DNA of 17,986 nucleotides, taken from the IMG/VR virus record IMGVR_UViG_2667528065_000005; one strand, 5' to 3'. Shown piece by piece: positions 2,321-17,986 of this stretch. Within the stretch, counting starts at the first letter, position 1. Each line of letters begins with the position of its first letter. The notes beneath the pieces are model-generated. The model ran no database searches. It had not been told where the DNA came from and saw only the letters and a list, made by a program, of their open reading frames with translations. Source of the stretch: a virus (Duplodnaviria > Heunggongvirae > Uroviricota > Caudoviricetes). The translations under genes were made by a program, and so were the position numbers.

Positions 2321-2367
2321 TGACCCGTGGGAAATGGGGGACTCTGGTTAACACCCTTTGCTCCTTC

Positions 2368-2409
2368 AAACGCCACTATGATGCCAACAAACGCCACTAT
2401 GATGCCAAC
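2368..2409. repeat. Perfect 21-bp tandem duplication (aaacgccactatgatgccaac x2) inside adiA; in-frame, duplicates KRHYDAN
   Basis: Read directly: 2368-2388 repeated at 2389-2409. Confidence 0.95.
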
Positions 2410-2436
2410 ACACCGCTGGCGCAGGTGATGCCGGAA

Positions 2437-2480
2437 CTTGTTGAACAATATCCTGACACTTGTTGAACAATATCCTGACA
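2437..2480. repeat. Perfect 22-bp tandem duplication (cttgttgaacaatatcctgaca x2) inside adiA; frameshift
   Basis: Read directly: 2437-2458 repeated at 2459-2480. Confidence 0.95.
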
Positions 2481-2501
2481 CTTACGCGAACATGGGGATT
2501 C

Positions 2502-2549
2502 ACGATCTGGGTGACACCATGTTTGACGATCTGGGTGACACCATGTTTG
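2502..2549. repeat. Perfect 24-bp tandem duplication (acgatctgggtgacaccatgtttg x2) inside adiA
   Basis: Read directly: 2502-2525 repeated at 2526-2549. Confidence 0.95.
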
Positions 2550-2562
2550 CCTGGCTGAAAGA

Positions 2563-2628
2563 AAACAACCCTGGCGCACGGTTGAATGAAGCCTAAAACA
2601 ACCCTGGCGCACGGTTGAATGAAGCCTA
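2563..2628. repeat. Perfect 33-bp tandem duplication inside adiA; the junction creates a TAA stop in the reading frame in use at that point
   Basis: Read directly: aaacaaccctggcgcacggttgaatgaagccta at 2563-2595 repeated at 2596-2628. The junction gcc|taa gives a stop at 2594-2596. Confidence 0.95.
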
Positions 2629-2637
2629 TTCCGGCCT

Positions 2638-2677
2638 ACCGGTGGCGGAAATCACCTCACCGGTGGCGGAAATCACC
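2638..2677. repeat. Near-tandem duplication, 19-nt core (accggtggcggaaatcacc) with period 21 and a 2-nt difference at the junction, inside adiA
   Basis: Read directly: copies at 2638-2656 and 2659-2677 separated by tc. Translates as VAEIT..VAEIT. Confidence 0.9.
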
Positions 2678-2781
2678 CCGCGTGAAGCGTACAACGCGAT
2701 TGTCGACAACAATGTCGAACTGGTATCCATTGAAAATCTGCCAGGACGTATCGCGGCAAACTCAGTTATCCCGTATCCGCC

Positions 2782-2816
2782 AGGAATCCCGATGCTGTCT
2801 AGGAATCCCGATGCTG
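2782..2816. repeat. Imperfect tandem duplication, 16-nt core (aggaatcccgatgctg) with period 19, inside adiA; net frameshift
   Basis: Read directly: copies at 2782-2797 and 2801-2816 separated by tct. Confidence 0.9.
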
Positions 2817-2988
2817 CTGTCTGGTGAAAACTTCGGCGATAAAAACAGTCCGCAAGTAAGTTATTTACGCTCGCTGCAATCCTGGGACCATCATTTCCCT
2901 GGATTTGAACACGAAACAGAAGGGACAGAAATTATTGACGGTATTTACCACGTTATGTGTGTGAAAGCGTAACCACTATTCCGCTGAA

Positions 2989-3015
2989 GGCGTAATTGTT
3001 AAATAACATTACGCC
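2989..3015 (+). terminator. Hairpin just downstream of the adiA stop (8-bp stem ggcgtaat/attacgcc with a partly self-complementary loop)
   Basis: Inverted repeat read directly; only a short T-run follows (ttttaag after a second short GC element). Confidence 0.4.
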
Positions 3016-3089
3016 GCCTGGCTTGAGGCCTTTTAAGTATGGCAACGTTTTCATAAAAATTGCTGCAAACAAAAAATGTCATGCTTTTT

Positions 3090-3117
3090 GCGCGGTCCCA
3101 CCCCGCGCTTTTTTTTG
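3090..3117 (+). terminator. Rho-independent terminator-like element: GC stem gcgcgg/ccgcgc, 7-nt loop, then a 9-T run
   Basis: Read directly: gcgcggtcccaccccgcgc followed by ttttttttt. Confidence 0.55.
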
Positions 3118-3593
3118 CCTGTTATTTATCCTTTTTTTAGCCTGTAAAAAAATATGTATCATGAGAAATTAGCCTATAAAAATATGTAATATTAGTAAAA
3201 CTCGTTATTTTTATGCATGTTTATATTCATCATACAATTATATAACCATTTCCCGGTATCGCTTCGCTTTAGCGAGAACTGGTCTTTTATTCGCACTCAG
3301 GAGTACATGTATGAGGATTTGCAGCGACCAACCTTGTATTGTTTTATTGACTGAAAAAGATGTCTGGATAAGGGTGAATGGGAAAGAACCTATTAGCCTT
3401 AAAGCTAACCACATGGCGTTATTAAATTGTGAAAATAATATTATCGACGTCTCCTCTCTTAATAACACTTTGGTTGCTCATATTAGTCACGACTATGCAT
3501 GCAAAGATTACCTCACGACATCATCAAAGATAACATCCGGTCTCGCAAATACCAGTATGGCAACGTAGCGCTACGCCCATCCTCACCCTTCCA

Positions 3594-3646
3594 TGCCTGA
3601 CGCCAGACGTCTTTCGCGTCTGCCTGACGCCAGACGTCTTTCGCGT
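3594..3646. repeat. Near-perfect 27-bp tandem duplication in adiY (26/27 identical); in-frame, duplicates CLTPDVFRV
   Basis: Read directly: tgcctgacgccagacgtctttcgcgt at 3594-3619 and 3621-3646. Confidence 0.95.
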
Positions 3647-3799
3647 TGCCGCGCAGCATAGCATGATGCCCGCTGAAACTGAGTCAGAAAAGGAACGAAC
3701 ACGTGCATTATTATTCACTGTGCTATCCCGTTTTCTCGACAGTAAAAAATTCCTTTCACTAATGATGTATATGTTACGTAATTGTGTAAGTGACAGCGT

Positions 3800-3841
3800 T
3801 TATCAAATTATTGAAAGCGATTATCAAATTATTGAAAGCGA
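3800..3841. repeat. Perfect 21-bp tandem duplication in adiY (ttatcaaattattgaaagcga x2); duplicates YQIIESD
   Basis: Read directly: 3800-3820 repeated at 3821-3841. Confidence 0.95.
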
Positions 3842-4267
3842 TATCCACAAAGACTGGAATCTTAGTATGGTAGCCAGTTGTTTATGTCTTAGCCCAAGTC
3901 TGTTAAAGAAAAAGCTGAAAAGCGAAAACACCAGTTATAGCCAAATAATCACCCACCTGCCGCATGCGTTATGCCGTAAATGAATTAATGATGGACGGTA
4001 AAAATATCTCTCAGGTATCACAGTCCTGCGGCTACAACAGTACGTCGTACTTTATTTCTGTCTTTAAAGACTTCTACGGTATGACGCCGCTGCATTATGT
4101 TAGTCAGCACAGAGAACGCACTGTCGCCTGATTTTTAACCTTAACGAAGAGCTATATTAATAACGGCATCAGCGATAACCCGGCCGATAATAATTCAACT
4201 ATCGAATGCAGGCGTATGATATGACGTAATTTATTGTCACGAAGCTCGCCTTCGCAGGAGTTTAATT

Positions 4268-4777
4268 ATGTCTTCGGATGCTGATGCTCACAAAGTGGGC
4301 TTAATCCCCGTCACCCTGATGGTGTCGGGGAATATTATGGGGTCAGGTGTTTTTCTGTTACCTGCAAACCTGGCCTCCACTGGCGGGATTGCTATTTATG
4401 GATGGTTGGTGACGATTATCGGTGCGCTGTCGGTGCGCTGGGGCTCTCGATGGTATACGCCAAAATGTCGTTCCTCGACCCAAGTCCTGGTGGTTCTTAC
4501 GCTTACGCCCGCCGCTGCTTTGGCCCGTTTCTCGGTTATCAAACCAACGTCCTCTACTGGCTGGCCTGCTGGATCGGCAATATCGCCATGGTGGTCATTG
4601 GCGTAGGATATTTAAGTTACTTCTTCCCGATTCTGAAAGATCCATTGGTATTAACCATCACCTGCGTCGTGGTGCTGTGGATCTTCGTCCTGCTGAACAT
4701 TGTCGGTCCGAAAATGATCACCCGCGTACAGGCCGTTGCTACCGTGCTGGCGCTGATCCCCATCGTCGGGATTGCCG
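4268..4777 (+). pseudogene. adiC: Arginine:agmatine antiporter AdiC, 5' portion only; frameshifted by an 11-bp tandem duplication and cut off by the prophage junction
   Basis: [54 protein letters not shown] in frame 2, then ...[47 protein letters not shown]...IPIVGIA in frame 1. Coding sequence diverges into unrelated DNA after about 4777. Confidence 0.85.
4419..4440. repeat. Perfect 11-bp tandem duplication (tcggtgcgctg x2) in adiC; frameshift
   Basis: Read directly: 4419-4429 repeated at 4430-4440. Confidence 0.95.
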
Positions 4778-7956: not shown

Positions 7957-8487
7957 TTACTGCACATCCTGCTCAAAAGGAATTATTGAAAAATCCTCAA
8001 TATCACTTTTTATGGTAATACCGGGAATATTTTTCACAGCCTCTTTTTCATTCAGAATGGCATCTTTATTTATTTCCTCCTTTACACGAATAAAGCGCTC
8101 AAGCCCCAGACGTCTCAGCAGTTCAATGACATTATCCGCCCCGCGAATGCTGACTGACGGCGGACGGTTTCGCCACTGCACCTCGCCGGTGGTGAGGTTA
8201 GCGAACTTCACCTTCCCGTTGCCGGTCAGTTCATCACGGTGCGCCTCACACCATGTCTGGATACCGGACTGCAGTTCGGCCATGCGTTTTTTCAGGCTCT
8301 CGGTGAGCGGGGCATAACGTGCAGTGATGTCGCCAATGGTGTCATTCATTTCTGTTTCAGCCCTGACCAGTTCACGTTGCGCGTCACCAAGCAGTCTGAT
8401 TCCCTCAATGACCTCTTCGCGTGTCCCCGGCACCCAGAGTGCTGCTGCGGCTTTGATACGTTTTGCCCCTTTTGTACTTTTTGCCAT
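7957..8487 (-). CDS. gam: Host-nuclease inhibitor Gam (Mu Gam-like DNA-end-binding protein)
   Basis: 176 aa. MAKSTKGAKRIKAAAALWVPGTREEV...TEMNDTIGDIT...WCEAHRDELTGNGKVKFANLTTGEVQWRNRPPSVSIRGADNVIELLRRLGLERFIRVKEEINK...GITIKSDIEDFSIIPFEQ aligns along its length with the recalled Mu Gam. Confidence 0.85.
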   Translation of the reverse strand: MAKSTKGAKRIKAAAALWVPGTREEVIEGIRLLGDAQRELVRAETEMNDTIGDITARYAPLTESLKKRMAELQSGIQTWCEAHRDELTGNGKVKFANLTTGEVQWRNRPPSVSIRGADNVIELLRRLGLERFIRVKEEINKDAILNEKEAVKNIPGITIKSDIEDFSIIPFEQDVQ

Positions 8488-8514
8488 ATTTTATGACTCC
8501 TCCTGTTGTGCTGA

Positions 8515-8784
8515 TTACCACAAAGATTCCGGCCACACGACGCGACAGCCGTGCAGTTCGAAAACGCCCTGACGGAAATGTCCCCTGTGGTCATGACCGG
8601 TATACAGATAACAGGCCTTTCCCTGCTCAAGCATGCGCATGCAATGCGCACTCCGGGAAACGCGGATGACAGGTTTGTTACCCCTGATGGTGATGCTTTG
8701 TACATCCGTGTTCGTCGCCTTAAGCGCCATAATGGCTGACTGCACTTTGCTGATTTGCTGGTTGATACCTGTGGTGGATTTCAT
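8515..8784 (-). CDS. Hypothetical phage protein (89 aa) between the MuB-like gene and gam
   Basis: ORF in operon register, 2 bp after the B-like stop. Confidence 0.45.
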   Translation of the reverse strand: MKSTTGINQQISKVQSAIMALKATNTDVQSITIRGNKPVIRVSRSAHCMRMLEQGKACYLYTGHDHRGHFRQGVFELHGCRVVWPESLW

Positions 8785-8786
8785 TA

Positions 8787-9953
8787 TTAAACCCCTTTGA
8801 CAACGTCAGCGTTGACCTGTGGAACCCCGATTTCAGCGGCCAGATTCATGGCGGCTATTACCAGGTTACTGACGGCCAGCGGATACAGCAGGCTGACCAT
8901 ATTTTTACGATGACTTCCCGGATTGCTCAGGCGGGCACGTATGGCATCCACTGCGCTGGCGTCCATAATGTCCGTCAGTTGTTTACCGGCCCGTTGCAGT
9001 TTGAACGTCAGAAACTCTTCAAGGTTATTGTCCAGAGGCAGAAGTTCGACCACCTCACAGCGCTGAACGACTTCACGGACTTCCATATTGCGTTCAGACA
9101 GTTTTGTCGCCAGTTCCGGCTGGCCAATCAGCACGATGGACAGCAGTTTTTTGAAACCGGACTCCAGCTCAAAAAAGCGTTTGAGGTGTTTCAGTGTCGG
9201 AATGGGCAGACTGTGGGCCTCCTCAATCACCAGAACGTGGCTGAACCCCGCCTGGCTGCTGTCTTTCAGGACGCGATGCAACTGGCGAAAGCGGGCGTCC
9301 TGACTGCGTCTGATGCTTTCCAGTGGTGCGATGGTACTGATAATGGCTTCGGCAATCGCTGCTGCCTTCAGGGTTTTCCCTTTCACATCGTTGTCTTCCA
9401 TAGCGATGATGTATGGCTCGATAACAATTACCGGCGCATTCTCGCGGTTGATACGTTCAGTCAGGTCGCGGCGCAGCGTGGATTTACCCGCACCGGACTC
9501 ACCGATGACGGCCATAAACCCACCATGACGGGCTGTCTGGTACAACGCCTCACGCACGTAGCGAATATCCGGGGTGGTGAACACATCATCAGAACCCTGC
9601 ATGGCTTCGTCGGCGAACGGGTCACGGAAAAGACCAAACGCTTTTTTGGTTGCTGGAAATAACACCTGTTTTTTGAGTAACATATTCTCTTCCTCACTGA
9701 GGCTCGTTTTATCTGTGGTACCCGCTGTACGGGGCGTGGCCGCGCCCTGTACAGCATCAAAACTCTTCGTTGTATCAATCCCCTGACTTTCCAGCCAGGA
9801 CGCAAGACGCCGGCGCACTTCTCCGGGGCTGGTGCGGGGCCACGCGTTATGATTCACAATCTGGGCCAGCGTGGCCTCAGAAACATCGACAGCTCTCGCC
9901 ACCACCGCCTGTGGAATACGGGCCTCTTTCAGTTGCTGCTTCAGTACCAGCAT
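8787..9953 (-). CDS. MuB-like AAA+ ATPase (transposition target/activator protein)
   Basis: Walker A GESGAGKST and Walker B HVLVIEEAH; N-terminal HTH-like region. Likely start is the ATG at 9953 with GGAGGG upstream (the longest frame extends to 9992). Immediately downstream of the transposase gene. Confidence 0.8.
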   Translation of the reverse strand: MLVLKQQLKEARIPQAVVARAVDVSEATLAQIVNHNAWPRTSPGEVRRRLASWLESQGIDTTKSFDAVQGAATPRTAGTTDKTSLSEEENMLLKKQVLFPATKKAFGLFRDPFADEAMQGSDDVFTTPDIRYVREALYQTARHGGFMAVIGESGAGKSTLRRDLTERINRENAPVIVIEPYIIAMEDNDVKGKTLKAAAIAEAIISTIAPLESIRRSQDARFRQLHRVLKDSSQAGFSHVLVIEEAHSLPIPTLKHLKRFFELESGFKKLLSIVLIGQPELATKLSERNMEVREVVQRCEVVELLPLDNNLEEFLTFKLQRAGKQLTDIMDASAVDAIRARLSNPGSHRKNMVSLLYPLAVSNLVIAAMNLAAEIGVPQVNADVVKGV

Positions 9954-9963
9954 GTTTCCCTCC

Positions 9964-11733
9964 TCAGTTGCCGTTAACAATGCTGATAACACTGCTGCGG
10001 GCCGGTGTGGTCAGCGTGGCCATGACTTCATCCAGTGCGGCTTCCGGTACGCCGTCCGGGTACTGTGCCGTTAACTGGCGGTAATGTTCCGGCGTCCAGG
10101 TAAGGCCGTCGGCGCTGAACTTATCGCGCAGGGCTTTCGCGGCCTCCACATGAGTCATGGGACGTTGTTCAGTGCGCGGCCCGCGTACGTCAGAGGCCTG
10201 ACCACGCTTCGGCATATAGGCCGGAAGTGTGGTGTCGTCGATATGTTTATACGGGTCAAGCCGCCCGCCGAACGGCAGCGCCTTCGCCTTGCGTGCGGCG
10301 GCTGCATCTGCGGCGTTGTCTGTACCGGTAACCAGCGCTTCGGTTTCTTTTGCCGCCATCTGTGCCGGGGTTTCCGGCAGGGCTTTGTAACTTTCGCCAA
10401 ATACCGCCGCGCCTTCAGCAAAGCCAAACTCGTTCTTTCTGACCTCTTCGACCAGGAAGAACGTCTCGTGGCCGTCCTCACCGGTCAGAACCACCTGTGC
10501 CACATCGCTGCGCCATGGGTTACGGGTAATCATCAGTTTTTCACCAACCAGTACGCCCGGTACCGTTGATACGTCAAATTCAGTGCCCCGGAACGAGACA
10601 CGAAGTTTTGGCGTGACTTTGCGGAGTTCTGGTGCCGCCACAGCCAGTTCACGACATACCTCAACGGAAGGCGCTTTTTTCAGCTGCTCAGCAGTAATCT
10701 TCAGCCAGATATCCGTGCGGGTTTTACCGTGGCGGCTGTGAACAGCCGTGGCGTTAAAGTGGCTGCGCCATTTCGCGGCCAGCGCGTTGAGTTCTTCCAG
10801 ACTGTGAACCGGCCGGAACTTCAGACCCGGCTCCAGCTTGCGTTCGATAATGTCACGCGCCTTTTCCACCTGTCCGGTGGCGCGGGCGTTATGCGGCTTG
10901 TGCGCTATCAGGTCAATGCCCAGTGAGCGGCACATGTTTTTCGTCATACCCGCGGTGTTTGCCGAACCGGGGTCGAGATAGAGTATTTTTGGCACGCCGT
11001 GCAGCACGTCTGCGCCGCCACGCTCCTGCATGGCGTTGATAAGCACAGAACACAGGTTCTCACCGGATTCCGCACCCGTCACATACTCAACGTAAATCCA
11101 GCCGCTGGCATGGTCGGTAATCTCGTAACTCCACACGCGGTCACTGGCGATACGGGCAAGGTTAGCGGGTTTGTTCTTGTAGAACTTCGCGCTGTCCATC
11201 ACCTGCAGCCCTTTGTGTCCATTGCTCAGGTAGTAAAGCGTGCAGAGCGAGGCATCAATCTGCCAGACATGATTGGGATGCAGACTGGCCACTTCGGTAT
11301 GCGGCGCAGGAGCATCCAGTTGTTCCGGGTGCAGGCCATAGTTACGCAGGGCACGACTGATGGCATCTTCGGACAACGGGAAAAACTCACCGGTGGTTTC
11401 ATCTGTTCTGCCTGCGGAGATAAAGCCGTTAGCCCGCAGGGTTTCCACTGCATCCGCGATGGAATAGAGACGCTTACCGTTCTTGCGGGTGGCCTCACGC
11501 AGTGTGGCAGATATCAGCGCGGCTTCGTCGCGGGTCAGGGCGCTGCGTCCGGCATCAGCGCGTTTTTTGCGTTTATCAGTCACAGAGACCTCCTTCAGCC
11601 TGCGCAGCAGAGTGGCGCGGGACATGCCAAGTTCAGCACAGGCAGCGTCGTATATTGCACCGCGTTTACCATGCCCCGCGTCACGTGCCGCGCGGGCGAC
11701 ATAAACCAGTCGTTCAGTCAGGGCAGCATTCAT
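9964..11733 (-). CDS. DDE transposase (Mu A-like / rve-fold)
   Basis: 589 aa. N-terminal HTH-like region, then candidate catalytic residues in HVWQIDAS, LYLDPGSANT and NARATGQVEK. GGAGG upstream of the start. Confidence 0.8.
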   Translation of the reverse strand: MNAALTERLVYVARAARDAGHGKRGAIYDAACAELGMSRATLLRRLKEVSVTDKRKKRADAGRSALTRDEAALISATLREATRKNGKRLYSIADAVETLRANGFISAGRTDETTGEFFPLSEDAISRALRNYGLHPEQLDAPAPHTEVASLHPNHVWQIDASLCTLYYLSNGHKGLQVMDSAKFYKNKPANLARIASDRVWSYEITDHASGWIYVEYVTGAESGENLCSVLINAMQERGGADVLHGVPKILYLDPGSANTAGMTKNMCRSLGIDLIAHKPHNARATGQVEKARDIIERKLEPGLKFRPVHSLEELNALAAKWRSHFNATAVHSRHGKTRTDIWLKITAEQLKKAPSVEVCRELAVAAPELRKVTPKLRVSFRGTEFDVSTVPGVLVGEKLMITRNPWRSDVAQVVLTGEDGHETFFLVEEVRKNEFGFAEGAAVFGESYKALPETPAQMAAKETEALVTGTDNAADAAAARKAKALPFGGRLDPYKHIDDTTLPAYMPKRGQASDVRGPRTEQRPMTHVEAAKALRDKFSADGLTWTPEHYRQLTAQYPDGVPEAALDEVMATLTTPARSSVISIVNGN

Positions 11734-11736
11734 TGG

Positions 11737-12648
11737 TTATGCCTCCAGCCCGTTAATCTGTGGCGTCGGCTCAGTCAGCCATGAAGGCGCGGCATTGCCT
11801 GTTGGCTCATCCGGCAGGTCAAATGTGGAGCGCAGGCTACGCGCTGTGCTTTCCAGTTGACAGACCAGGCCTGCCATGAAGTCTCTGGGGGTATCAATCA
11901 TGTTTTCAGCACAATATGCGCACAGCGTCTCAAAAGCGCTGGACAGTCGAACGGCGATAGCAGATTCCGCCTCAACCGCTAATGCTGTCACTTCCGCCCG
12001 CAGCTTCTTAACCTCTTCATCAGGCTCAGGCGGCTGAATACGGGATTTCTTCTCCAGTCTGGTGGAGAGTGAGTCTATTTTTTCATTTTTGTCAGCGAGT
12101 ACGCGCTGTTGTGCTGCGTTGGTTTCGCGCGCTTCGCGCAGGGCCTGACGCAATTCACGTACTGACATGCGATCAACGTCGTCAAGCGTCAGGCCGGCAA
12201 CTGTGCCGCCGTCGGCCAGTTCGGCAAGCTCTTCGTCGTCTTCTGTCATTAATTCGAAAAGTTTGGCTTTTCCCAAATGTGCCAACGTTGGCACATTTGG
12301 TTTCAGCGCCGGGGATAAGTATTTTGTCGATGCTTGCATCATTCTCACAGATGTCCGGTATGCCAGCCCCAACTCACTTTCAAGAATCTTTATAAACTCC
12401 CCGTGTGGTTCATTTTCCTTAAGGATTATCAGCCGCTTACCTGCCTCCAGCATGGCCTCAGCGCTCTGTGCCATATAAAAGCGTGCCTCATGGACAACAC
12501 GATCGCGCTCATAGGGCAGACCATCGCCGAACTGTTGCATGATTTCCATGCGATGCTGTGTCATGGCGTTTAGACTGACATTGAGATCATCCGACAGCGG
12601 TACCTCGACGTTCAGTTCAGTGCTAACCGGTGATTTGGTGCGTCCCAT
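11737..12648 (-). CDS. Hypothetical phage protein (303 aa) with a coiled-coil-like acidic central region
   Basis: Long ORF with AAGGAG upstream of the start; lies between the Ner-like genes and the transposase. Confidence 0.55.
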   Translation of the reverse strand: MGRTKSPVSTELNVEVPLSDDLNVSLNAMTQHRMEIMQQFGDGLPYERDRVVHEARFYMAQSAEAMLEAGKRLIILKENEPHGEFIKILESELGLAYRTSVRMMQASTKYLSPALKPNVPTLAHLGKAKLFELMTEDDEELAELADGGTVAGLTLDDVDRMSVRELRQALREARETNAAQQRVLADKNEKIDSLSTRLEKKSRIQPPEPDEEVKKLRAEVTALAVEAESAIAVRLSSAFETLCAYCAENMIDTPRDFMAGLVCQLESTARSLRSTFDLPDEPTGNAAPSWLTEPTPQINGLEA

Positions 12649-12658
12649 TGATTACTCC

Positions 12659-12967
12659 TTACAAACGACTACCTGAAATAACACGTTGGTTGATTTCGTT
12701 AATGCGATCCTGTGCACGTGCCATCTCGTTACTGTGGGCCATGGCGATCTGCAGCAACTGGATGCCTGGTGCGAAACGCCCGTTTTCTAGTTTCAGAGCC
12801 AACCCTTCTTCAATGAGCGTGTTAAGTGCCCGGTTGATGTTTGCCGGTGATTCGTGCAGTGCAACCGCTAGTTCCCCGTTAGAAACACCGTTCAAAGCGT
12901 GGCCACGTAAGGCCTTAAGAACGCGCAAAATACGGGTACCTGAGCTTGATGTATTTGGTTTATTCAT
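12659..12967 (-). CDS. Winged-helix/HTH DNA-binding protein (102 aa)
   Basis: GTRILRVLKALRGHALNGVSNGELAVALHESPANINRALNTLIEEGLA resembles an HTH of the IclR/MarR type. 4-bp overlap with the upstream gene. Confidence 0.5.
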   Translation of the reverse strand: MNKPNTSSSGTRILRVLKALRGHALNGVSNGELAVALHESPANINRALNTLIEEGLALKLENGRFAPGIQLLQIAMAHSNEMARAQDRINEINQRVISGSRL

Positions 12968-13188
12968 GACGCCTCCTTAAGGATACCGGGGGTAACTTCT
13001 TTACCTATTGCAACCGATAGATCTCGCAAAATCCGATAAGTCAAACGACCGCGAGGTAGTTCACTTTTACCAGCCCAGCGACTGACTGCCTGGGTGACTG
13101 TTCGTGGTTCATAGCCCGCGTTAAGCGCGAACTGGCGCAAGCTACTGCCTCGTTCAACCAGCCGTGCCCGAACTTGTTGTTTGTTCAT
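12964..13188 (-). CDS. ner: Ner-like DNA-binding protein (Ner/Nlp family)
   Basis: VRARLVERGSSLRQFALNAGYEPRTVTQAVSRWAGKSE matches the recalled Mu Ner pattern (ADVIAGLKKRKLSLSALSRQFGYAPTTLANALERHWPKGE). Divergent from the repressor gene. Confidence 0.65.
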   Translation of the reverse strand: MNKQQVRARLVERGSSLRQFALNAGYEPRTVTQAVSRWAGKSELPRGRLTYRILRDLSVAIGKEVTPGILKEAS

Positions 13189-13276
13189 ATGCACCGTGTT
13201 CCTGTTAGGTTATGATGTACTCTATTGGGTCTATTGTACACACCCAAATGAGTGTGTCAAATTGAGATATGTTCAA
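13189..13276. promoter_or_regulatory. Divergent ner / repressor control region with candidate operators
   Basis: 88-bp gap between divergent genes. Contains inverted repeat ACACAC-N8-GTGTGT (13238-13257) and direct repeat tctattg x2 (13221-13236). Confidence 0.4.
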
Positions 13277-13684
13277 ATGAGTACAAAAGAGAGATTGCGT
13301 GAAGTGATGGATGCTAATGGCATGACAATAAAGGCATTATCTAACTTATCAAAAATTCCATATCGCTCACTTCAAAACTATTTGCGTGGAGAGAGAGAAC
13401 CAAACGCAGAGGCTCTTGTTGCGCTAAGCACCCATTTGGGTGTATCGATCGATTGGCTACTTACCGGTAAAGAACATATTCCATCTAAAGAAATTGTTGC
13501 TGTACCAACACAACATCAATTCAGCCCGTCAGACCTTAAAATGCTTGAACTTCTAAACCAGTTAGATCCTGAGGTTCGGCGAGATCTCATGCGAGGCGCT
13601 GAAGAAAAACAGCGTGTGATTGAGATGGAAAAACAACTGAAGGAATTATCCGCAACGATTGAGCGGTTAAAAAATGTGGGTTAA
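13277..13684 (+). CDS. XRE-family (Cro/CI-type HTH) phage repressor with C-terminal coiled-coil
   Basis: MSTKERLREVMDANGMTIKALSNLSKIPYRSLQNYLRGEREPNAEALVALSTHLGVSIDWLLTG is a typical XRE HTH. Divergent from the early operon. The ORF track's longer frame starts at 13181, but that would overlap ner. Confidence 0.65.
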   Translation: MSTKERLREVMDANGMTIKALSNLSKIPYRSLQNYLRGEREPNAEALVALSTHLGVSIDWLLTGKEHIPSKEIVAVPTQHQFSPSDLKMLELLNQLDPEVRRDLMRGAEEKQRVIEMEKQLKELSATIERLKNVG

Positions 13685-13754
13685 TGTGTTCCTAACGAGA
13701 ACATATAGCAGAAATTATTTGCCATTAAGCAATAAAAAATAAGGTGGATAGCTA

Positions 13755-14762
13755 ATGTCTGAGCAGACCATTGAAGTTAAACACGTTGTAGTTCACATTT
13801 TAGACAAACAACAAAATGGAGACGCTTCTGAGAGATTGAGTCCTGAAGAAGGTCTAGTTACTGAAGCCTCCCAGCGCCTTATAAACGATATTTGTGCAAA
13901 ATATGCAGGACGCACAGGTAAAGGTTATGGCTATTTTGAAGGCGATACGGATAACTATCCTATGGAACGAATGGCTGGGGACTTTCTCGAAGGTGTTGAT
14001 GATTTCTACCAAAGTTCCTGCCGAATGATGCATCACCTGACGGAACGTTCTCAGCGAGAAAACATGGCTACTGGTGGTTATGTTCTTTTTGCAAATATCG
14101 TGATAGGACACAATGAACACCTGTTGATAGCTATTGTAAGCGCTACCATTGGATCCACTGTCACAGATGATTTTAACATCCAAGATAGTACCTATCTTGA
14201 TATTGCTAAGCTGCGTATGGCTGGGCGCATTGACTTAACCGCGTGGGAAAGTGGCGCAGAGCGCTATATCAGTTTTCTTAAGGGGCAAGGTAATGTTTCA
14301 AACTATTTTAAACAGTTCCTCGGCTGTAATGATGTCTTAATCGCCAAACGAGAGTCTGAAAAGTTACGTGACGTTTTAAAAGCATTTGCGGCAGAGAAAG
14401 GACTTGACGGCGCTGAAAAAGATGCATTTCTTAAGAGTGCGTTTGAACACTTACATGCACTAAGTAAGGCTGGTGAACCACTTAGTCTTGAAACCCTTGT
14501 TAATGCCATTTGGCCCCAGGCTCCCGAGGAGTTATCTGGTAAACTTGCTGCTGAAGAGTTGGAGTTATCGGATGGCTTCGTTCCTGATGGTCGAGTCATT
14601 CGGGCTCTGGTATCTTTTAAAGGCAAGTCTAAATATTGGGAACTTAAGTTTGACCGGGAAGGGAAAACTGAAGGCTATATTGATTATGATCCGGAAACAA
14701 ATATTATCACCCTACGTAATGTACCTGAAGAATTTAGGGAAATGTGGATGACTGAGGTTTAA
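13755..14762 (+). CDS. Divergent YejK/NdpA-family nucleoid-associated protein homolog (335 aa), prophage cargo
   Basis: Shared blocks with recalled E. coli YejK along the whole length: GGYVLFANIVIGHNEHLLIAIV, YLDIAKLRMAGRIDLTAWE, YISFLKGQ, YFKQFLGCNDVLIAKRE...AEKGLDGAEKDAF, ITLRNVPEEFRE. AAGGTGG Shine-Dalgarno before the ATG. Confidence 0.65.
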   Translation: MSEQTIEVKHVVVHILDKQQNGDASERLSPEEGLVTEASQRLINDICAKYAGRTGKGYGYFEGDTDNYPMERMAGDFLEGVDDFYQSSCRMMHHLTERSQRENMATGGYVLFANIVIGHNEHLLIAIVSATIGSTVTDDFNIQDSTYLDIAKLRMAGRIDLTAWESGAERYISFLKGQGNVSNYFKQFLGCNDVLIAKRESEKLRDVLKAFAAEKGLDGAEKDAFLKSAFEHLHALSKAGEPLSLETLVNAIWPQAPEELSGKLAAEELELSDGFVPDGRVIRALVSFKGKSKYWELKFDREGKTEGYIDYDPETNIITLRNVPEEFREMWMTEV

Positions 14763-14764
14763 TC

Positions 14765-15970
14765 GTGGCGATTTCATTTGAGATGCTGACAGATCTGTAT
14801 CGTCGTATGGAATTCCAAGAGGGGTTTCGTGTCGGTTCGCTGTTGCTCTTAGATCAGTCCGATTGTGATCTGGTTGATACTTTGCTTGATGATCCTCGTG
14901 AATATGGTCTTTCTATTGATACAGGCACTATCGCTCCAGGTAACACGATCATCCTACGTGTGACGTCACCACGGAGTGGACTGGGACTTGTGTTTTCCAC
15001 CCATGAAAAATTGCTAAATGCTCCAAAGCATCAGTGCCTTGAGCCAGCTAATTACTTCATCCTAGAAACAAAGTTTCGTAATGATGATGAAGATATCCCC
15101 GTTTTCATCAGCAACTACCGGAAGATTCTCGAGTTCGTTAACCTGCTAAAAGAGGCCGCGGCCTACTTTGATAACTCAACTTGTCAGTTAGTTTTTCTGA
15201 AAAAAGAAGTTATCAAGCTATTACCGCACTTCGCTGCAGAAAATGTACAAAATTTGCAAAGAGAGTATCTTGATAACCTTATAGCTTGTTTCAATGATGA
15301 TACCCATAAGGATCAGAAGCTAGATATTCTGATTGAAAGTATCCAAGCAGTTAGTGATGGAATTGATTCACCTCTAGTATTCGCTTATTTACTGGACAAT
15401 ATTCAGCGTCTGCATGAAAAGTTTCTGAAAGGGTATCGTATCTACTCTTCTGGATTCTCTTATGACAAAGTAATGGATCAACTGCGTGCTGCAAAAGTCG
15501 AAGAAATGGGTAAAATCCACAAAGCGTTTTCAGATATCCAGAACCATATACTTGGCATTCCTGTTGCCTCTGTTATCGTAGCTACCCAATTCAAAGTGGC
15601 TACGAAATGGTCAGGCCAAGGGATAACAAACACAATAATTCTTCTGGGATGCATTTTTGCTGCAACGTTAATCTGGCTGGCACTTTCGAACCAGATGCAA
15701 TCTATAAAGGCCTTAGGCGAAGAAATTGAATACAAAGAAAAACAGATTAATAAGGAATATTCCTTCATTAAAGATGACGTGGCTGGTGTATTTAGCAGTA
15801 TTTCTGCGCGACTAGACACGCAGAAACGTACGTTCTGGATTATACGTGGTGTTCTAGTTATGGGAATTATTACCGCTATCACTGTTTATTTTTGGTACAC
15901 AAAACCAGCCCTTGACTTCATGCAGTACTTGATTCACTGCATGAAGTCTTACTATTCGGTCAAAAGTTGA
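14765..15970 (+). CDS. Hypothetical 401-aa protein: soluble N-terminal region plus two or three C-terminal transmembrane helices; coupled to the YejK-like gene
   Basis: GTG start 2 bp after the upstream stop with GAGGT upstream (an alternative ATG lies at 14783). Hydrophobic helices TNTIILLGCIFAATLIWLAL and FWIIRGVLVMGIITAITVYFWY. No family recognised. Confidence 0.6.
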   Translation: MAISFEMLTDLYRRMEFQEGFRVGSLLLLDQSDCDLVDTLLDDPREYGLSIDTGTIAPGNTIILRVTSPRSGLGLVFSTHEKLLNAPKHQCLEPANYFILETKFRNDDEDIPVFISNYRKILEFVNLLKEAAAYFDNSTCQLVFLKKEVIKLLPHFAAENVQNLQREYLDNLIACFNDDTHKDQKLDILIESIQAVSDGIDSPLVFAYLLDNIQRLHEKFLKGYRIYSSGFSYDKVMDQLRAAKVEEMGKIHKAFSDIQNHILGIPVASVIVATQFKVATKWSGQGITNTIILLGCIFAATLIWLALSNQMQSIKALGEEIEYKEKQINKEYSFIKDDVAGVFSSISARLDTQKRTFWIIRGVLVMGIITAITVYFWYTKPALDFMQYLIHCMKSYYSVKS

Positions 15971-16730
15971 GGATAATGAGTTCCTTCTTGCGACTGGATT
16001 TGCCAGTGATCTTGAGGTTGTAGCTGATATCAACCGACTGAATATTTAGACCGTTGAATGCCTGCCGCATTTCCGGGATATCGTTCACCGATATAATCAT
16101 CTTCCCTTTGATCCTGCGTGCTAAATCTGCCATATGATCATAATTTTCTAGTCCGAACTCCACACCATAACCTTCCGTTCCCCAGTATGGAGGGTCACAG
16201 TAGAACAACGTATGCGGGCGATCATATCGTTCTATGCACTGTTGCCAGTCCATGTGTTCTATGACCGTTCTGGAAAGCCGCAGGTGTGCCGCTGACAGTT
16301 CTTCTTCAATACGCAGCAGGTTGAAGCGTGGCGGGGATATGGTGGAGGTACCAAAGCTGTGCTCCGCCACCTTGCCTCCAAACGCCTGCTTCTGAAGGTA
16401 GTAGAACCGTGCTGCACGCTGGATATCCGTCAGTGTTTCTTCCGGGGTGATCTGCAGCCATTTGTAGATCTGCCGGCTGACCAGCGCCCATTTGAACTGG
16501 CGTACAAATTCTTCCAGATGATGTTTTACCACCCGATACAGGTTCACCAGTTCACCGTTGATATCATTAATGACTTCGATCTTGCCGGGTACCTTAAGAA
16601 AATAGAGCGCTGCTGCCCCACAAAACGGCTCCACATAACATTCATGCGCCGGAAACAGCGGCAGGATGTGTTTTGCAAGGCGGCGTTTGCCACCAATCCA
16701 TGGAACGATGGGTAATGTCTGCATTTTCAT
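15960..16730 (-). CDS. Dam-type N6-adenine DNA methyltransferase (D12 class)
   Basis: 256 aa with FCGAAALYF (AdoMet-binding region) and the catalytic DPPY motif. Convergent with, and overlapping by 11 bp, the 3' end of the 401-aa gene. Confidence 0.8.
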   Translation of the reverse strand: MKMQTLPIVPWIGGKRRLAKHILPLFPAHECYVEPFCGAAALYFLKVPGKIEVINDINGELVNLYRVVKHHLEEFVRQFKWALVSRQIYKWLQITPEETLTDIQRAARFYYLQKQAFGGKVAEHSFGTSTISPPRFNLLRIEEELSAAHLRLSRTVIEHMDWQQCIERYDRPHTLFYCDPPYWGTEGYGVEFGLENYDHMADLARRIKGKMIISVNDIPEMRQAFNGLNIQSVDISYNLKITGKSSRKKELIILNF

Positions 16731-16772
16731 AATCTGTAAGCCTTTTACAATTATAAAAAATATGGCAGGCTA

Positions 16773-16794
16773 GTCTGGTCTCGCGAGACTGACT
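16773..16794. promoter_or_regulatory. About 22-bp imperfect palindrome with a perfect 12-bp core GTCTCGCGAGAC; candidate operator or activator site
   Basis: Read directly: agtctg-GTCTCGCGAGAC-tgact, core at 16778-16789. Lies about 48 bp upstream of the dam start and about 190 bp upstream of the first lysis gene. Confidence 0.35.
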
Positions 16795-16835
16795 GAACCT
16801 CGGTCGGCTCACAGCGCATTCCTGTGGGGCGATGG

Positions 16836-16873
16836 CCAGCCCGGTGTTCGGGTACCGGGCTGGTCGTTCTTTC
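16836..16873 (+). terminator. GC-rich hairpin (ccagcccgg / ccgggctgg, 10-nt loop) followed by a T-rich tract; terminator- or attenuator-like
   Basis: Read directly; function uncertain because no plus-strand gene ends just upstream. Confidence 0.3.
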
Positions 16874-16977
16874 AAAGTCATCATGCAGTGCACGTTTACA
16901 TCTTCACTATTAACGCTGTTTAAAATCCGTATCCCGCCACATTTGTGATGCTGTCTCCACCAAACGAGGAGACACAC

Positions 16978-17328
16978 ATGAAAAACCTGAAAAAATTCAT
17001 TCCCCCTGTTAAAAAACCTCGCCTCAGCGGCTGGCTGCTGACCTCAGTGCTGTTGCTGGGCATCATCGCTCTGGTCTCGCCACAGCAGTTGCCTGTTGTG
17101 ATCTACAAGCTGGCACTTATCACGCTGGCAGCAGTGCTGGGTTACTGGCTTGACCGTTCGCTCTTCCCCAAAGCCCGTCCCGGTCAGTACCTGAAACATG
17201 ACGACAGGCTGATGGCTGAAGGGCGTTTCCCGGTACAGACCGGCCTTCACCTGGTGTTTTCTGCTGCGTTAATCCGCCGTGCACTGATTGTTGCAGCGGT
17301 CTGCCTGGCTGTGGCAACAGGACTGTGA
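16978..17328 (+). CDS. Small membrane protein with about three TM segments; holin-like candidate, first gene of the lysis cassette
   Basis: Start MKNLKKFIPP preceded by GAGGAG. Hydrophobic segments WLLTSVLLLGIIALV, VIYKLALITLAAVLGYWL, ALIVAAVCLAVATGL. Directly upstream of the transglycosylase gene. Confidence 0.5.
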   Translation: MKNLKKFIPPVKKPRLSGWLLTSVLLLGIIALVSPQQLPVVIYKLALITLAAVLGYWLDRSLFPKARPGQYLKHDDRLMAEGRFPVQTGLHLVFSAALIRRALIVAAVCLAVATGL

Positions 17329-17330
17329 CC

Positions 17331-17986
17331 ATGAACTGGCCTCAAATCACCCTCATTATTCTGTTCGCCTTTGGTCTGGGCGTAACCGCCATCAGACACG
17401 GAGAACCACGTAACGATAAATACAGCTTCTGGTGGCAGCTTGCTGGCAACCTGGTGATTGTCTGGCTGCTCTGGTGTGGCGGCTTTTTCAGCCAGGCATG
17501 CGCAGCGCAGCCCCCGCAGGCTGCGCTGCAGTATCGCGATGATGTGATCCGTAATGCCCGGCTTGAATGGGGACTGTCTGCGCCGGTGGCCGATTTCGCC
17601 GCGCAACTGCATCAGGAAAGCGGCTGGCGACCTGATGCGATCTCGCCGGCTGGCGCTCAGGGACTGGCGCAGTTCATGCCTGCCACTGCCGACTGGATAA
17701 GCCAGTTGATACCGATGCTGAGCAGTCGTGAGCCGTTTAATCCGGCATGGGCTATCCGGGCGCTGGTCAGCTATGACCGCTGGCTGTGGCAGCGTGTCAG
17801 CGCCGCCAGTGACTGCGAGCGTATGGCCATGACACTGTCGGGCTATAACGGTGGTCTGGGCTGGGTACAACGGGACAGGCGGCTTGCATCACAGAAAGGT
17901 CTGGACAGCACCCGCTGGTTCGGACATGTCGCCACGGTGAATGCCGGACGCAATGCGGCCAGCTGGCGGGAGAACCGCCATTATCC
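17331..17986 (+). CDS. Lytic transglycosylase (SLT-domain) endolysin with N-terminal hydrophobic segments, possibly SAR-type; 3' end beyond window
   Basis: Own translation from the ATG at 17331: MNWPQITLIILFAFGLGVTAIRHG...WWQLAGNLVIVWLLWCGGFF... then the SLT catalytic region QESGWRPDAISPAGAQGLAQFMPATA. Open to the window edge; not in the ORF track because it has no stop. Confidence 0.75.
   Translation, partial: MNWPQITLIILFAFGLGVTAIRHGEPRNDKYSFWWQLAGNLVIVWLLWCGGFFSQACAAQPPQAALQYRDDVIRNARLEWGLSAPVADFAAQLHQESGWRPDAISPAGAQGLAQFMPATADWISQLIPMLSSREPFNPAWAIRALVSYDRWLWQRVSAASDCERMAMTLSGYNGGLGWVQRDRRLASQKGLDSTRWFGHVATVNAGRNAASWRENRHY

What the first reader, a model, noticed from the sequence alone, without database searches (positions are those of the whole stretch)
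13189..15970. AT-rich block (repressor plus cargo pair) embedded in a GC-richer prophage
By eye, the repressor, the YejK-like gene and the membrane-protein gene are clearly more AT-rich (roughly low 40s percent GC) than the flanking early operon and lysis genes (roughly mid to high 50s). This suggests the immunity region and its cargo were acquired as a mosaic module by horizontal exchange. Percentages are visual estimates, not computed.
Basis: seen in the sequence. Interest (0 to 1): 0.45.

Follow-up and report, generated by a model that had tools for sequence, protein, structure and literature searches.

The report
AT-rich lysogeny unit carrying defence cassette
The AT-rich stretch is real: it is the lysogeny-side gene block of a Mu-like E. 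coli prophage, made of the repressor plus a separately exchangeable two-gene cassette that belongs to a recently described class of anti-phage systems, so it is an ordinary kind of prophage mosaic.

Summary
Observation confirmed. GC is 41.2% in 13189-15970 against 54.0% in the rest of the prophage (z = -13.6). GC3 is 0.34-0.39 against 0.43-0.69. The maximum-likelihood low-GC segment is 13171-16150.

The window is a BcepMu-like transposable prophage of E. coli inserted in adiC. The block is its + strand lysogeny unit: repressor (13277-13684), a YejK/NA37-like protein (13755-14762) and a 401-aa protein with an acidic N-domain and C-terminal membrane segments (14765-15970).

The single-module reading fails. 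Relatives with a 76%-identical repressor carry a different cargo, with junctions at 13704/13705 and 15978/15979. A Yersinia relative has the same cargo with a different repressor DNA-binding domain. A Klebsiella relative has the pair in a second slot, and lambdoid prophages carry it between Q and holin. All alternative repressor and cargo alleles are also AT-rich, and 32 of 34 species-level relatives show the same dip.

The pair matches the architecture of type II PANGU and is a remote homologue of both proteins of the validated DS-1 system (23% identity; all 47 family members sampled hit the DS1_2 model). Function here is inferred, not shown. Verdict: new member of a known kind, modest interest.

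The parts
12964..13188 (-). Ner/Cro-like first gene of the leftward early operon. It is the partner of the repressor in the immunity module. GC is normal (0.52), so it lies outside the AT-rich block.
   Evidence: phrog_8503 and HTH hits. Annotated in L001. Homology to EC958-type and 503025-type relatives ends at 12967/12968, so ner and the repressor are replaced together there.
13189..13276 (.). Divergent regulatory region between the ner-like gene and the repressor. It holds a strong sigma-70-like early promoter on the - strand (TTGACA-16-TACAAT, 13260..13233).
   Evidence: Promoter scan, 11 of 12 matches. The left edge of the GC dip lies at 13171-13189.
13277..13684 (+). CI-type HTH repressor, 135 aa. 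It is chimeric: an exchangeable N-terminal DNA-binding domain and a conserved C-terminal helical tail (from about 13520).
   Evidence: Pfam HTH_3 2e-11 and Phage_CI_repr 3e-6. PHROG repressor families. Protein alignment: 76% identity to AW1.7; only the last ~50 aa are shared with the Yersinia and TUM17543 repressors. Nucleotide homology to Yersinia restarts at 13520 and to TUM17543 at 13438.
13686..13702 (.). Conserved imperfect palindrome TGTTCC-N4-GAGAACA immediately after the repressor stop codon. It is the last conserved sequence before the cargo slot in all variants compared.
   Evidence: Alignment of five variants. It is not a significantly stable RNA hairpin (z = -0.42). No terminator is predicted here.
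13705..15978 (+). Exchangeable cargo cassette: the NA37 gene plus the membrane-effector gene with about 40-50 bp of upstream leader.
   Evidence: Junctions at 13704/13705 and 15978/15979 against KP12, AW1.7 and 21KM1392. When the unit is found in another slot (Klebsiella L015) it covers 13718-15926.
13755..14762 (+). YejK/NdpA-like nucleoid-associated protein (NA37), 335 aa. Predicted sensor (PagA-like).
   Evidence: Pfam NA37 1e-80 over the full length. PDB YejK 9be2, E = 7e-30. phrog_3767, 7e-117. NCBIfam YejK 9e-55 and DS1_1_antiphage 1.4e-17, both below their cut-offs. 23% identity to DS-1A.
14765..15970 (+). 401-aa partner protein. It has an acidic soluble N-domain (residues 1-255, pI 5.0, net charge -11) and a C-terminal region with three hydrophobic segments (262-280, 285-311, 356-378). 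Predicted membrane effector (PagB-like). It starts at a GTG two bases after the NA37 stop codon, preceded by a GAGG Shine-Dalgarno sequence.
   Evidence: Composition and hydropathy. AlphaFold2 model, pLDDT 82. phrog_5023, 6e-143. NCBIfam DS1_2_antiphage 3e-21, matched by all 47 family members sampled. 23% identity to DS-1B. Pairing with NA37 is conserved in distant taxa.
15960..16730 (-). Dam-family orphan adenine methyltransferase. It belongs to the backbone, is convergent with the cassette, and overlaps its 3' end by 11 bp. It is not part of the cassette, although its last ~180 bp are AT-rich.
   Evidence: Pfam MethyltransfD12 7e-28. TIGR00571. Homology to relatives resumes at 15979-16039. 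GC3 is 0.57.
16881..16904 (.). Second variable slot, between dam and the holin gene. It is empty in this window.
   Evidence: Relatives insert here a DUF2441 gene (KP12, 21KM1392, 503025), three hypothetical genes (EC958, TUM17543) or the NA37 pair itself (Klebsiella L015).

Best explanation
What the block is:
- The AT-rich block is the rightward lysogeny-side unit of a BcepMu-like transposable prophage.
- It lies between the leftward early operon (ner-like, IclR-HTH, DUF3102, transposase A, B, Gam ... Mor) and the rightward lysis and late genes.
- It has two independently exchangeable parts.

Part 1, the repressor:
- A CI-type repressor whose N-terminal DNA-binding domain is swapped among relatives.

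Part 2, the cargo cassette (13705-15978):
- A self-contained two-gene cassette sitting in a moron slot directly behind the repressor.
- It encodes a YejK-like nucleoid-associated protein.
- Two bases downstream, it encodes a protein with an acidic cytoplasmic domain and a C-terminal membrane domain.
- This is the architecture of type II PANGU (Pag2A/Pag2B).
- Both proteins are remote homologues of the two proteins of the validated E. coli system DS-1.

Inferred mechanism, taken from the PANGU preprint and not tested here:
- In the lysogen the pair is expressed with, or next to, the repressor.
- The NAP sits on the nucleoid.
- When an incoming lytic phage degrades host DNA, the NAP is released.
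- The released NAP binds the acidic, DNA-mimicking N-domain of the membrane partner.
- The partner then damages the membrane and aborts the infection.

On the composition:
- Low GC is a shared property of the whole lysogeny side in this phage family and of the cassette wherever it occurs in Enterobacterales.
- It fits genes drawn from an AT-rich pool of prophage accessory and immunity genes.
- It does not point to one recent joint acquisition.
For: Shown here:
- Composition.
- Prophage identity and layout.
- Insertion in adiC here and in the hyf operon in RIVM_C036569.
- Sharp cassette junctions and independent assortment of repressor and cargo.
- The pair in other slots and in other phage types.
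- The pairing is conserved in Paraburkholderia and Shewanella, with overlapping or 2-16-bp gaps between the genes.
- NA37 identity.
- Acidic N-domain plus C-terminal membrane segments.
- Homology of both proteins to DS-1.
- No terminator predicted between the repressor and the NA37 gene.
- Family-wide GC dip.

From papers:
- Type II PANGU is a NAP plus an effector with an N-terminal acidic DMK domain and a C-terminal TM domain. Both genes are needed. It acts by abortive infection against T4 and is escaped by denA (EndoII) mutants. The NAP leaves the nucleoid on infection (bioRxiv 10.64898/2026.04.06.716658).
- DS-1 (WP_000355468.1 plus WP_000150292.1, with the same gene order and the same 2-nt gap) protects against Bas1, Bas26, Bas3 and T3 (PMC13092281).
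Against: - There is no experimental data for this allele.
- The PANGU-Ecu sequences are not in the held text, so direct homology to Pag2A/Pag2B could not be tested.
- Similarity to DS-1 is remote: 23% identity, with scores of 64 and 76 bits against equivalog cut-offs of 330 and 315.
- DS-1A has an N-terminal zinc-ribbon that the window protein lacks.
- The N-domain is only moderately acidic (15% D+E, net -11), so 'DNA mimic' is not established.
- Co-transcription with the repressor is inferred only from gene order and the lack of a predicted terminator.
- Fold searches gave no informative match for the effector.
Confidence: 0.75

Rival explanations
1. The repressor plus the cargo pair form one module that entered a GC-richer phage in a single horizontal event, and the low GC marks that event.
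For: The three genes are contiguous, on the same strand, and equally AT-rich. In the Yersinia relative the repressor C-terminal tail and the cargo are co-inherited, with continuous homology from 13520.
Against: - The same repressor occurs with different cargo, with junctions immediately after the repressor stop codon.
- The same cargo occurs with a different repressor N-domain, in a different slot, and in lambdoid phages.
- All other alleles are equally AT-rich.
- The GC dip is family-wide.
Confidence: 0.07
2. The NA37 and membrane-protein pair serves the phage's own biology and is not an anti-phage abortive-infection system. Possible roles are nucleoid remodelling that helps transposition or lysogeny maintenance, or classical superinfection exclusion at the membrane.
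For: - The carrier is a transposable phage whose replication depends on host DNA architecture.
- YejK-type NAPs interact with topoisomerases (own knowledge).
- The gene lies next to the repressor.
- No direct defence assay exists for this allele.
Against: - The pair is dispensable and rare in the family: 19 E. coli genomes out of several hundred with related prophages, and 1 of 41 species-level relatives.
- It occurs in unrelated lambdoid prophages and in non-phage islands next to Mrr-type nucleases.
- Both proteins are homologous to a validated defence system.
Confidence: 0.12
3. The low GC is maintained by selection on the lysogeny-side unit and is not a leftover of foreign origin. Candidate pressures are H-NS-type silencing, low or tunable expression, or easy promoter melting.
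For: - Heteroimmune repressor alleles and unrelated cargos are all AT-rich.
- The dip is seen in 32 of 34 relatives and scales with backbone GC.
- The edge of the block follows the transcription unit and not the recombination junction at 12967/12968.
Against: - The cassette is also AT-rich relative to its surroundings in lambdoid late-region slots.
- It has host-like GC in Paraburkholderia. Both points fit circulation in an AT-rich enterobacterial accessory-gene pool with slow amelioration.
- No H-NS data are available.
- This explanation can coexist with the best explanation.
Confidence: 0.3

Closest known systems
Type II PANGU (Pag2A NAP sensor plus Pag2B TM effector), Li et al., bioRxiv 10.64898/2026.04.06.716658
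   Same: - A two-gene operon in which a YejK/NA37-like protein comes first.
- The partner has an acidic soluble N-domain and a C-terminal transmembrane domain.
- The genes are tightly coupled (2-nt gap).
- It is found in E. coli and is horizontally mobile.
   Different: - Sequence relationship to the tested PANGU-Ecu could not be checked.
- The preprint does not describe prophage carriage or a repressor-linked position.
- The acidity of the N-domain here is moderate.
- Activity, denA dependence and NAP relocation are untested for this allele.
DS-1 of DefensePredictor (WP_000355468.1 plus WP_000150292.1; NCBIfam NF053868 and NF053869), PMC13092281
   Same: - Both proteins are homologous: HMM E = 1.4e-17 and 3e-21, BLASTP 8e-9 and 6e-10.
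- The gene order, the 2-nt intergenic gap and the partner length (about 400 aa, with C-terminal hydrophobic segments) are the same.
   Different: - Identity is only 23%.
- Scores are far below the equivalog cut-offs.
- DS-1A has an extra N-terminal zinc-ribbon of about 40 aa.
- The window pair therefore belongs to a sister family (phrog_3767 plus phrog_5023).
Lambda cI-rexA-rexB (own knowledge)
   Same: - A two-gene abortive-infection module sits directly downstream of the prophage repressor, on the same strand, and is expressed in lysogeny.
- One component is cytoplasmic and senses a DNA-related signal. The other is a membrane protein.
- The immunity region is AT-rich.
   Different: - There is no sequence similarity. 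The PADLOC scan gave no hit of any kind for the NA37 protein and only a weak KwaA hit for the partner; whether that library holds RexA/RexB models was not checked.
- The carrier phage type is different.
- Co-transcription here is not shown.
Kiwa (KwaA membrane protein plus KwaB DNA-binding protein)
   Same: - A membrane protein is paired with a DNA-associated partner.
- The C-terminal region (residues 262-394) gives a weak hit to a KwaA model (E = 8e-5).
   Different: - Only 3-4 of the 47 family members sampled hit KwaA.
- Foldseek against the PDB gave no significant match (best E = 0.21).
- The scans of the NA37 protein returned no KwaB or DUF4868 hit.
- The gene order is reversed.
E. coli YejK (housekeeping NAP; PDB 9be2)
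   Same: Full-length NA37 fold family (E = 7e-30; NCBIfam YejK E = 9e-55).
   Different: - Well below the YejK equivalog cut-off (186 against 341 bits).
- Prophage-borne, operon-coupled to a membrane protein, and AT-rich.

Membership tests
Type II PANGU | The first gene encodes a YejK-like (NA37) nucleoid-associated protein. | tested here: met
   Pfam NA37 1e-80 over residues 12-327. YejK structure 9be2, E = 7e-30.
Type II PANGU | Bicistronic operon, with the NAP gene tightly coupled to one effector gene (adjacent genes less than 40 bp apart). | tested here: met
   TAA at 14760-14762 and GTG at 14765, with GAGG 7 nt upstream. The pairing is conserved in six further contexts with gaps from -11 to +16.
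Type II PANGU | The effector has a C-terminal transmembrane domain. | tested here: met
   Hydrophobic segments at 262-280, 285-311 and 356-378. Long helices at 213-275, 284-331 and 333-378 in the AlphaFold2 model.
Type II PANGU | The effector has an N-terminal acidic DNA-mimicking (DMK) domain that binds the NAP. | tested here: inconclusive
   Residues 1-255 have pI 5.0, net charge -11 and 15% D+E. This is acidic but not extreme. Binding and surface charge were not testable.
Type II PANGU | Sequence homology to Pag2A/Pag2B of the validated PANGU-Ecu. | not testable with these tools
   The sequences are only in a supplementary table that is not held.
Type II PANGU | Both genes are required for abortive-infection defence, which is triggered by phage-induced host DNA degradation. 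| not testable with these tools
   Needs experiments. Reported for PANGU-Ecu only.
DS-1 (NCBIfam NF053868/NF053869 equivalogs) | Both proteins score above the curated equivalog cut-offs. | tested here: not met
   63.7 bits against 330, and 75.9 bits against 315. The matches are significant but remote, so this is a sister family and not an equivalog.
DS-1 (NCBIfam NF053868/NF053869 equivalogs) | N-terminal CxxC...CxxC zinc-ribbon on the NAP component. | tested here: not met
   DS-1A begins MDITCLECG...CDKCG. In the window protein the NA37 domain starts at residue 12, with no such extension.
Kiwa | KwaA-family membrane protein plus KwaB (DUF4868) partner. | tested here: not met
   The KwaA hit is weak and seen in 3-4 of 47 members. 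No KwaB or DUF4868 hit was returned. Foldseek against the PDB gave no significant match.
BcepMu-like transposable prophage | - DDE transposase A plus AAA+ B, Gam and Mor on an early operon that reads away from a central immunity region.
- Mu-type late genes on the other side.
- Variable insertion sites. | tested here: met
   rve transposase, AAA_22, Gam, Mor and gp16-family annotation. Phage_Mu_Gp27 and Portal_Mu in relatives. Inserted in adiC here and in the hyf operon in NZ_CP086627. Direct similarity to BcepMu itself was not tested.

The most novel reading that the evidence does not exclude
Two linked claims remain open.

1. A defence hotspot expressed in lysogeny.
- The slot behind the repressor, and the second slot between dam and holin, would be defence hotspots of BcepMu-like transposable prophages.
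- The window's pair would be a third, divergent lineage of NAP-sensor plus membrane-effector systems, with its own phage range.
- The other occupants match no Pfam or PADLOC family, or only a DUF. They are the 175-aa, 297+105-aa, 328+203-aa and 233-aa genes, the DUF2441 gene, and the three ST131-type genes. These would be uncharacterised defence genes.

2. Avoiding self-triggering.
- Linking a genome-integrity sensor to the repressor transcript would switch it off on induction.
- That would let a phage that itself rearranges and packages host DNA avoid setting off its own cargo.
Probability: 0.3. Interest if true: 0.55.

Novelty: new member of a known kind. Interest (0 to 1): 0.33.

Why it matters
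- It places a recently described class of immunity (a nucleoid protein as sensor of genome damage) in a natural setting. The held text of the PANGU preprint does not contain the word 'prophage'. The setting is a lysogeny-side moron slot of a widespread enterobacterial transposable prophage, plus the Q-holin slot of lambdoid prophages.
- It gives exact cassette junctions for cloning.
- It defines a hotspot with several uncharacterised occupants, including those of the ST131 prophage.
- It shows that an AT-rich island in a prophage can mark a transcription unit that repeatedly hosts exchangeable genes, and need not mark one acquisition event.
- On its own, an AT-rich immunity and moron region in a prophage is textbook.

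Tried and rejected
- Kiwa link. The KwaA hit (E = 8e-5) looked promising. It is present in only 3-4 of the 47 family members sampled. Foldseek against the PDB gave no significant match. No KwaB or DUF4868 hit was returned for the NA37 protein. Rejected as membership.
- Boundary palindrome as terminator or hairpin. The RNA fold has z = -0.42 and the terminator scan is negative. Its role is unexplained. It is conserved with heterologous repressor N-domains, so it is unlikely to be the repressor's operator.
- A pattern search for that palindrome was mis-specified by one base and returned nothing. It was not repeated.
- PADLOC v2 (2023) has no model for the NA37 protein, because the library predates PANGU and DS-1.
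- Alternative cargo genes of relatives have no PADLOC or Pfam family apart from DUF2441. PHROGs gives only 'unknown function' families.
- Supplementary sequences of PANGU-Ecu are not held.
- Short direct and inverted repeats in 13150-13800 showed nothing beyond chance-level matches.
Full report
**1. Observation**

- In 400-bp windows, GC is 0.38-0.45 from about 13000 to 16000. The rest of the prophage is at 0.50-0.62.
- Per gene: repressor GC 0.414 and GC3 0.338; NA37 gene 0.427 and 0.348; membrane-protein gene 0.405 and 0.393.
- Backbone genes have GC 0.49-0.61 and GC3 0.43-0.69.
- No other 2782-bp stretch of the prophage goes below 0.527.
- A two-change-point likelihood fit returns 13171-16150.
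- The GC3 difference has Mann-Whitney p = 9e-4. Synonymous codon usage differs with p = 1.5e-29 (all).

**2. Context**

The window is E. coli DNA.
- Positions 1-4777 are adiA-adiY-adiC. The prophage starts at about 4778, inside adiC.
- From there to 13188, the - strand carries an early operon. It comprises Mor, a gp16-family protein, Gam, an AAA+ B-like ATPase, a DDE transposase (589 aa), a DUF3102 protein, an IclR-type HTH protein and a ner-like gene.
- From 16978 rightward lie holin, SLT lysin and, in the full prophage, Mu-type head and contractile-tail genes.
- An identical prophage sits in the hyf operon of strain RIVM_C036569. This fits transposition.
- NCBI annotates a neighbour as 'BcepMu_gp16 family', and the KP12 record refers to the S. 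Typhi CT18 prophage. The central, divergently transcribed immunity region is the BcepMu-type layout (own knowledge; Summer et al. 2004, cited in PMC7302871).
- The AT-rich block is therefore the + strand unit wedged between the early and late genes. It runs repressor, NA37 gene, membrane-protein gene, and is convergent with a Dam methylase gene that it overlaps by 11 bp.

**3. Is it one mosaic module?**

No.
- Related prophages are common in E. coli. 636 of 5426 genomes match some part of 12660-17300, but only 19 carry the block.
- Against KP12, AW1.7 and 21KM1392, homology (82-85% nt) runs from the early operon through the whole repressor gene to 13704. It restarts at 15979. Those phages have a 175/177-aa gene where the window has the pair.
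- The repressors are 76% identical, with an almost identical helix-turn-helix.
- Against TUM17543, homology stops at 13225, reappears for the repressor's C-terminal half (13438-13703), and resumes at 16039. The cargo there is 297 aa plus 105 aa.
- Against EC958 (ST131 type) and 503025, homology stops at 12967, so ner and the repressor are replaced together. EC958 has no cargo behind the repressor. 503025 has 328 aa plus 203 aa and no dam.
- A Yersinia enterocolitica prophage has the same cargo. It is 84% identical at nucleotide level from 13520 to the end of the window. Its repressor has an unrelated N-terminal domain fused to an identical C-terminal tail.
- A Klebsiella prophage of the same family has the pair in a second slot between dam and holin. 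Homology covers 13718-15926 only, and a different 233-aa gene sits behind its repressor.
- Divergent copies of the pair lie between the Q antiterminator and the holin of lambdoid prophages in Morganella, Citrobacter and E. coli, in either orientation.
- The pair also occurs in Paraburkholderia, in a region that also encodes an Mrr-type nuclease, and in Shewanella.
- Among 41 species-level relatives of the prophage fetched through the DUF3102 protein, only one (Mixta tenebrionis) has the pair.
- The exchangeable unit is thus the two genes plus a short leader. The repressor is a separate module and is itself chimeric.
- The last conserved sequence before every cargo is an imperfect palindrome, TGTTCC-N4-GAGAACA, right after the repressor stop codon.

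**4. What the low GC means**

- All five alternative repressor alleles and all alternative cargos examined have GC 0.37-0.45 on backbones of 0.49-0.63.
- In 32 of 34 species-level relatives, the kilobase on the lysogeny side has lower GC than the early operon (Wilcoxon p = 1e-9). In the close enterobacterial relatives the difference is -0.12 to -0.13, as in the window.
- The pair is also more AT-rich than its surroundings in lambdoid slots. It has host-like GC in Paraburkholderia.
- The dip is therefore a standing property of the lysogeny-side unit and of the gene pool that passes through it.
- It is not a fingerprint of one joint acquisition.
- Its left edge follows the transcription unit and not the recombination junction at 12967/12968, because the ner-like gene is GC-normal.
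- These data cannot separate the two explanations: an AT-rich donor pool, or selection such as H-NS binding or expression level.

**5. What the cargo is**

- Gene 1 is a full-length NA37/YejK-family protein (Pfam 1e-80; YejK structure 9be2, 7e-30; phrog_3767).
- Gene 2 starts two bases after the stop codon of gene 1, behind a GAGG Shine-Dalgarno sequence. It has no Pfam family and belongs to phrog_5023, of unknown function.
- In the searched database the gene 2 family has 166 clusters, mostly Enterobacterales.
- Residues 1-255 of the gene 2 protein are soluble and acidic (pI 5.0, net charge -11). The C-terminal 146 residues hold three hydrophobic segments.
- An AlphaFold2 model (pLDDT 82) shows an alpha/beta N-domain followed by long helices.
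- The two proteins diverge in parallel across relatives. For example, they are 50% and 38% identical to the E. coli lambdoid version.

Two recent reports bear on function.
- **PANGU.** Li et al. (bioRxiv 10.64898/2026.04.06.716658) define PANGU systems.
  - Type II is a YejK-like NAP (Pag2A) plus an effector (Pag2B) with an N-terminal acidic 'DNA-mimicking' domain and a C-terminal TM domain.
  - An E. coli example needs both genes and aborts T4 infection.
  - It is escaped by denA (EndoII) mutants.
  - Its NAP leaves the nucleoid on infection.
- **DS-1.** DefensePredictor (PMC13092281) validated DS-1, which consists of WP_000355468.1 (YejK domain) followed after 2 nt by WP_000150292.1 (404 aa).
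  - It gave a -log10 efficiency of plating of 7.6 on Bas1, 2.7 on Bas26, and 1.7 on Bas3 and T3.
- NCBIfam models built on DS-1 hit both window proteins (1.4e-17 and 3e-21). All 47 sampled members of the gene 2 family hit the DS1_2 model.
- Direct BLASTP gives 23% identity for each protein.
- The scores are far below the equivalog cut-offs, and DS-1A has a zinc-ribbon that is absent here.
- The window pair is therefore a sister family, not DS-1 itself.
- Whether it is the same family as the tested PANGU-Ecu could not be checked, because those sequences are not held.

**6. Most likely mechanism (inferred)**

- The position directly behind the repressor, on the same strand and with no predicted terminator between, suggests expression in the lysogen. 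Lambda rexAB behind cI is the model.
- By analogy with PANGU, the NAP coats the nucleoid.
- Host-DNA degradation by an incoming phage frees the NAP.
- The freed NAP binds the acidic N-domain of the membrane partner, which then compromises the membrane and aborts the infection.
- What is shown here: the architecture, the homology to a validated system, mobility as a unit, and accessory status.
- What is inferred: expression, trigger and effector action.

**7. Alternatives considered**

- A Kiwa relationship was rejected.
- A role in the phage's own transposition or lysogeny is unlikely. The pair is rare and dispensable within the family, and it occurs in lambdoid phages and non-phage islands.
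- The fold of the effector remains uninformative.

**8. Verdict**

It is wrong that the repressor and cargo form one acquired module, and wrong that low GC marks that acquisition.
- The cargo is a new member (a divergent sister lineage) of a known, very recently described kind of defence system, sitting in a classical prophage moron position.
- Interest is modest.
- The most useful by-products are the exact cassette junctions, the definition of two variable slots with several uncharacterised occupants, and an unrelated covarying palindrome in the early operon (see noticed in passing).

Noticed in passing
window 12273-12300 (inside the DUF3102 gene, 11737-12648, - strand): There is a perfect 28-bp palindrome, CCAAATGTGCCAACGTTGGCACATTTGG. 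It is the only palindrome with arms of 11 or more in the window.

- Relatives keep a 24-32-bp palindrome at the same codon positions, but with different inner sequences. Examples are CAAAAGCGCAAGC|GCTTGCGCTTTTG, CAAAAGCGAAAAC|GTTTTCGCTTTTG and CAAAACGGCAAGC|GCTTGCCGTTTTG.
- It is present in 31 of 41 species-level relatives (arms of 12 or more, at most one mismatch), from Enterobacterales to Burkholderia, Iodobacter and Lysobacter.
- On 27 distinct sequences, 95% of cells pair, against 53% or less when the partner is slid.
- 7 of 14 pairs change on both sides. 53 cells have a change on both sides, against 16.5 in shuffles (0 of 500 shuffles reach this).
- The encoded peptide changes to keep the palindrome (NVPTLAHLG, KAQALALLG, KAKTFSLLG).

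This suggests a cis element inside a coding region. It could be a binding site for a dimeric protein (a parS-in-parB-like arrangement) or an mRNA hairpin. The sequences were chosen because a palindrome was detectable, so the counts are biased upward.
   Followed up: partly
window 2289-3842 (adiA 3' end, adiY region; host flank): There are nine short tandem duplications of 16-33 bp, about two copies each and perfect or nearly so (93-100% matches), within 1.5 kb. Several break reading frames. Other E. coli genomes lack them: the match to 5375 genomes is split into 6-7 pieces, and the window is about 230 bp longer. This could be an assembly or editing artefact, or an unusual mutational cluster. 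It is unexplained.
   Followed up: partly
window ~4778 (prophage left end) and L001: The prophage is inserted inside adiC, the arginine/agmatine antiporter gene of acid resistance. A matching copy of the prophage region sits in the hyf operon next to a hycH remnant in strain RIVM_C036569. This fits transposition into varied sites and, here, loss of AdiC function.
   Followed up: partly
L018/L019 (S. Typhi chromosome) against window 8338-17986: S. Typhi genomes (indexed in 2702 blocks of the collection) carry a decayed copy of this same prophage, 98-99% identical at nucleotide level, with the same cassette. Deletions of 12384-13813, 13917-14311 and 14839-16802 remove part of the DUF3102 gene, the IclR-type HTH gene, ner, the repressor, most of the membrane gene and dam. 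A 198-aa NA37 fragment is left next to the holin gene.
   Followed up: partly
window 13686-13702: The imperfect palindrome TGTTCC-N4-GAGAACA directly after the repressor stop codon is conserved in all five variants compared, including those with unrelated repressor N-domains. It marks the left edge of the cargo slot. It is not a significantly stable hairpin and has no T-run. Its function is unknown.
   Followed up: partly
L003-L007, L002, L015 (slots homologous to window 13705-15978 and 16881-16904): Alternative occupants of the two variable slots have no PADLOC hit, and no Pfam family apart from DUF2441.

- A 175/177-aa gene (AW1.7, KP12).
- 297 aa plus 105 aa (TUM17543).
- 328 aa plus 203 aa (503025; the 328-aa gene is phrog_10002).
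- A 233-aa gene (Klebsiella).
- DUF2441 genes.
- Three small genes in the ST131/EC958 prophage.

These are candidate uncharacterised lysogeny-expressed functions.
   Followed up: partly
window 13277-13684 against L014 and L004: The repressor is chimeric. The last ~50 residues (DLKMLELLNQLDPEVRRDLMRGAEEKQRVIEMEKQLKELSATIERLKNVG) are identical or nearly so in phages whose N-terminal DNA-binding domains are unrelated (HTH_3 type against Phage_CI_repr type). This implies a recombination joint inside the gene, between the domains.
   Followed up: yes
window 15960-15970: The membrane-protein gene and the convergent dam gene overlap tail to tail by 11 bp. The right cassette junction (15978/15979) lies inside the last codons of dam, so a cassette exchange rewrites the Dam C-terminus.
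   Followed up: no
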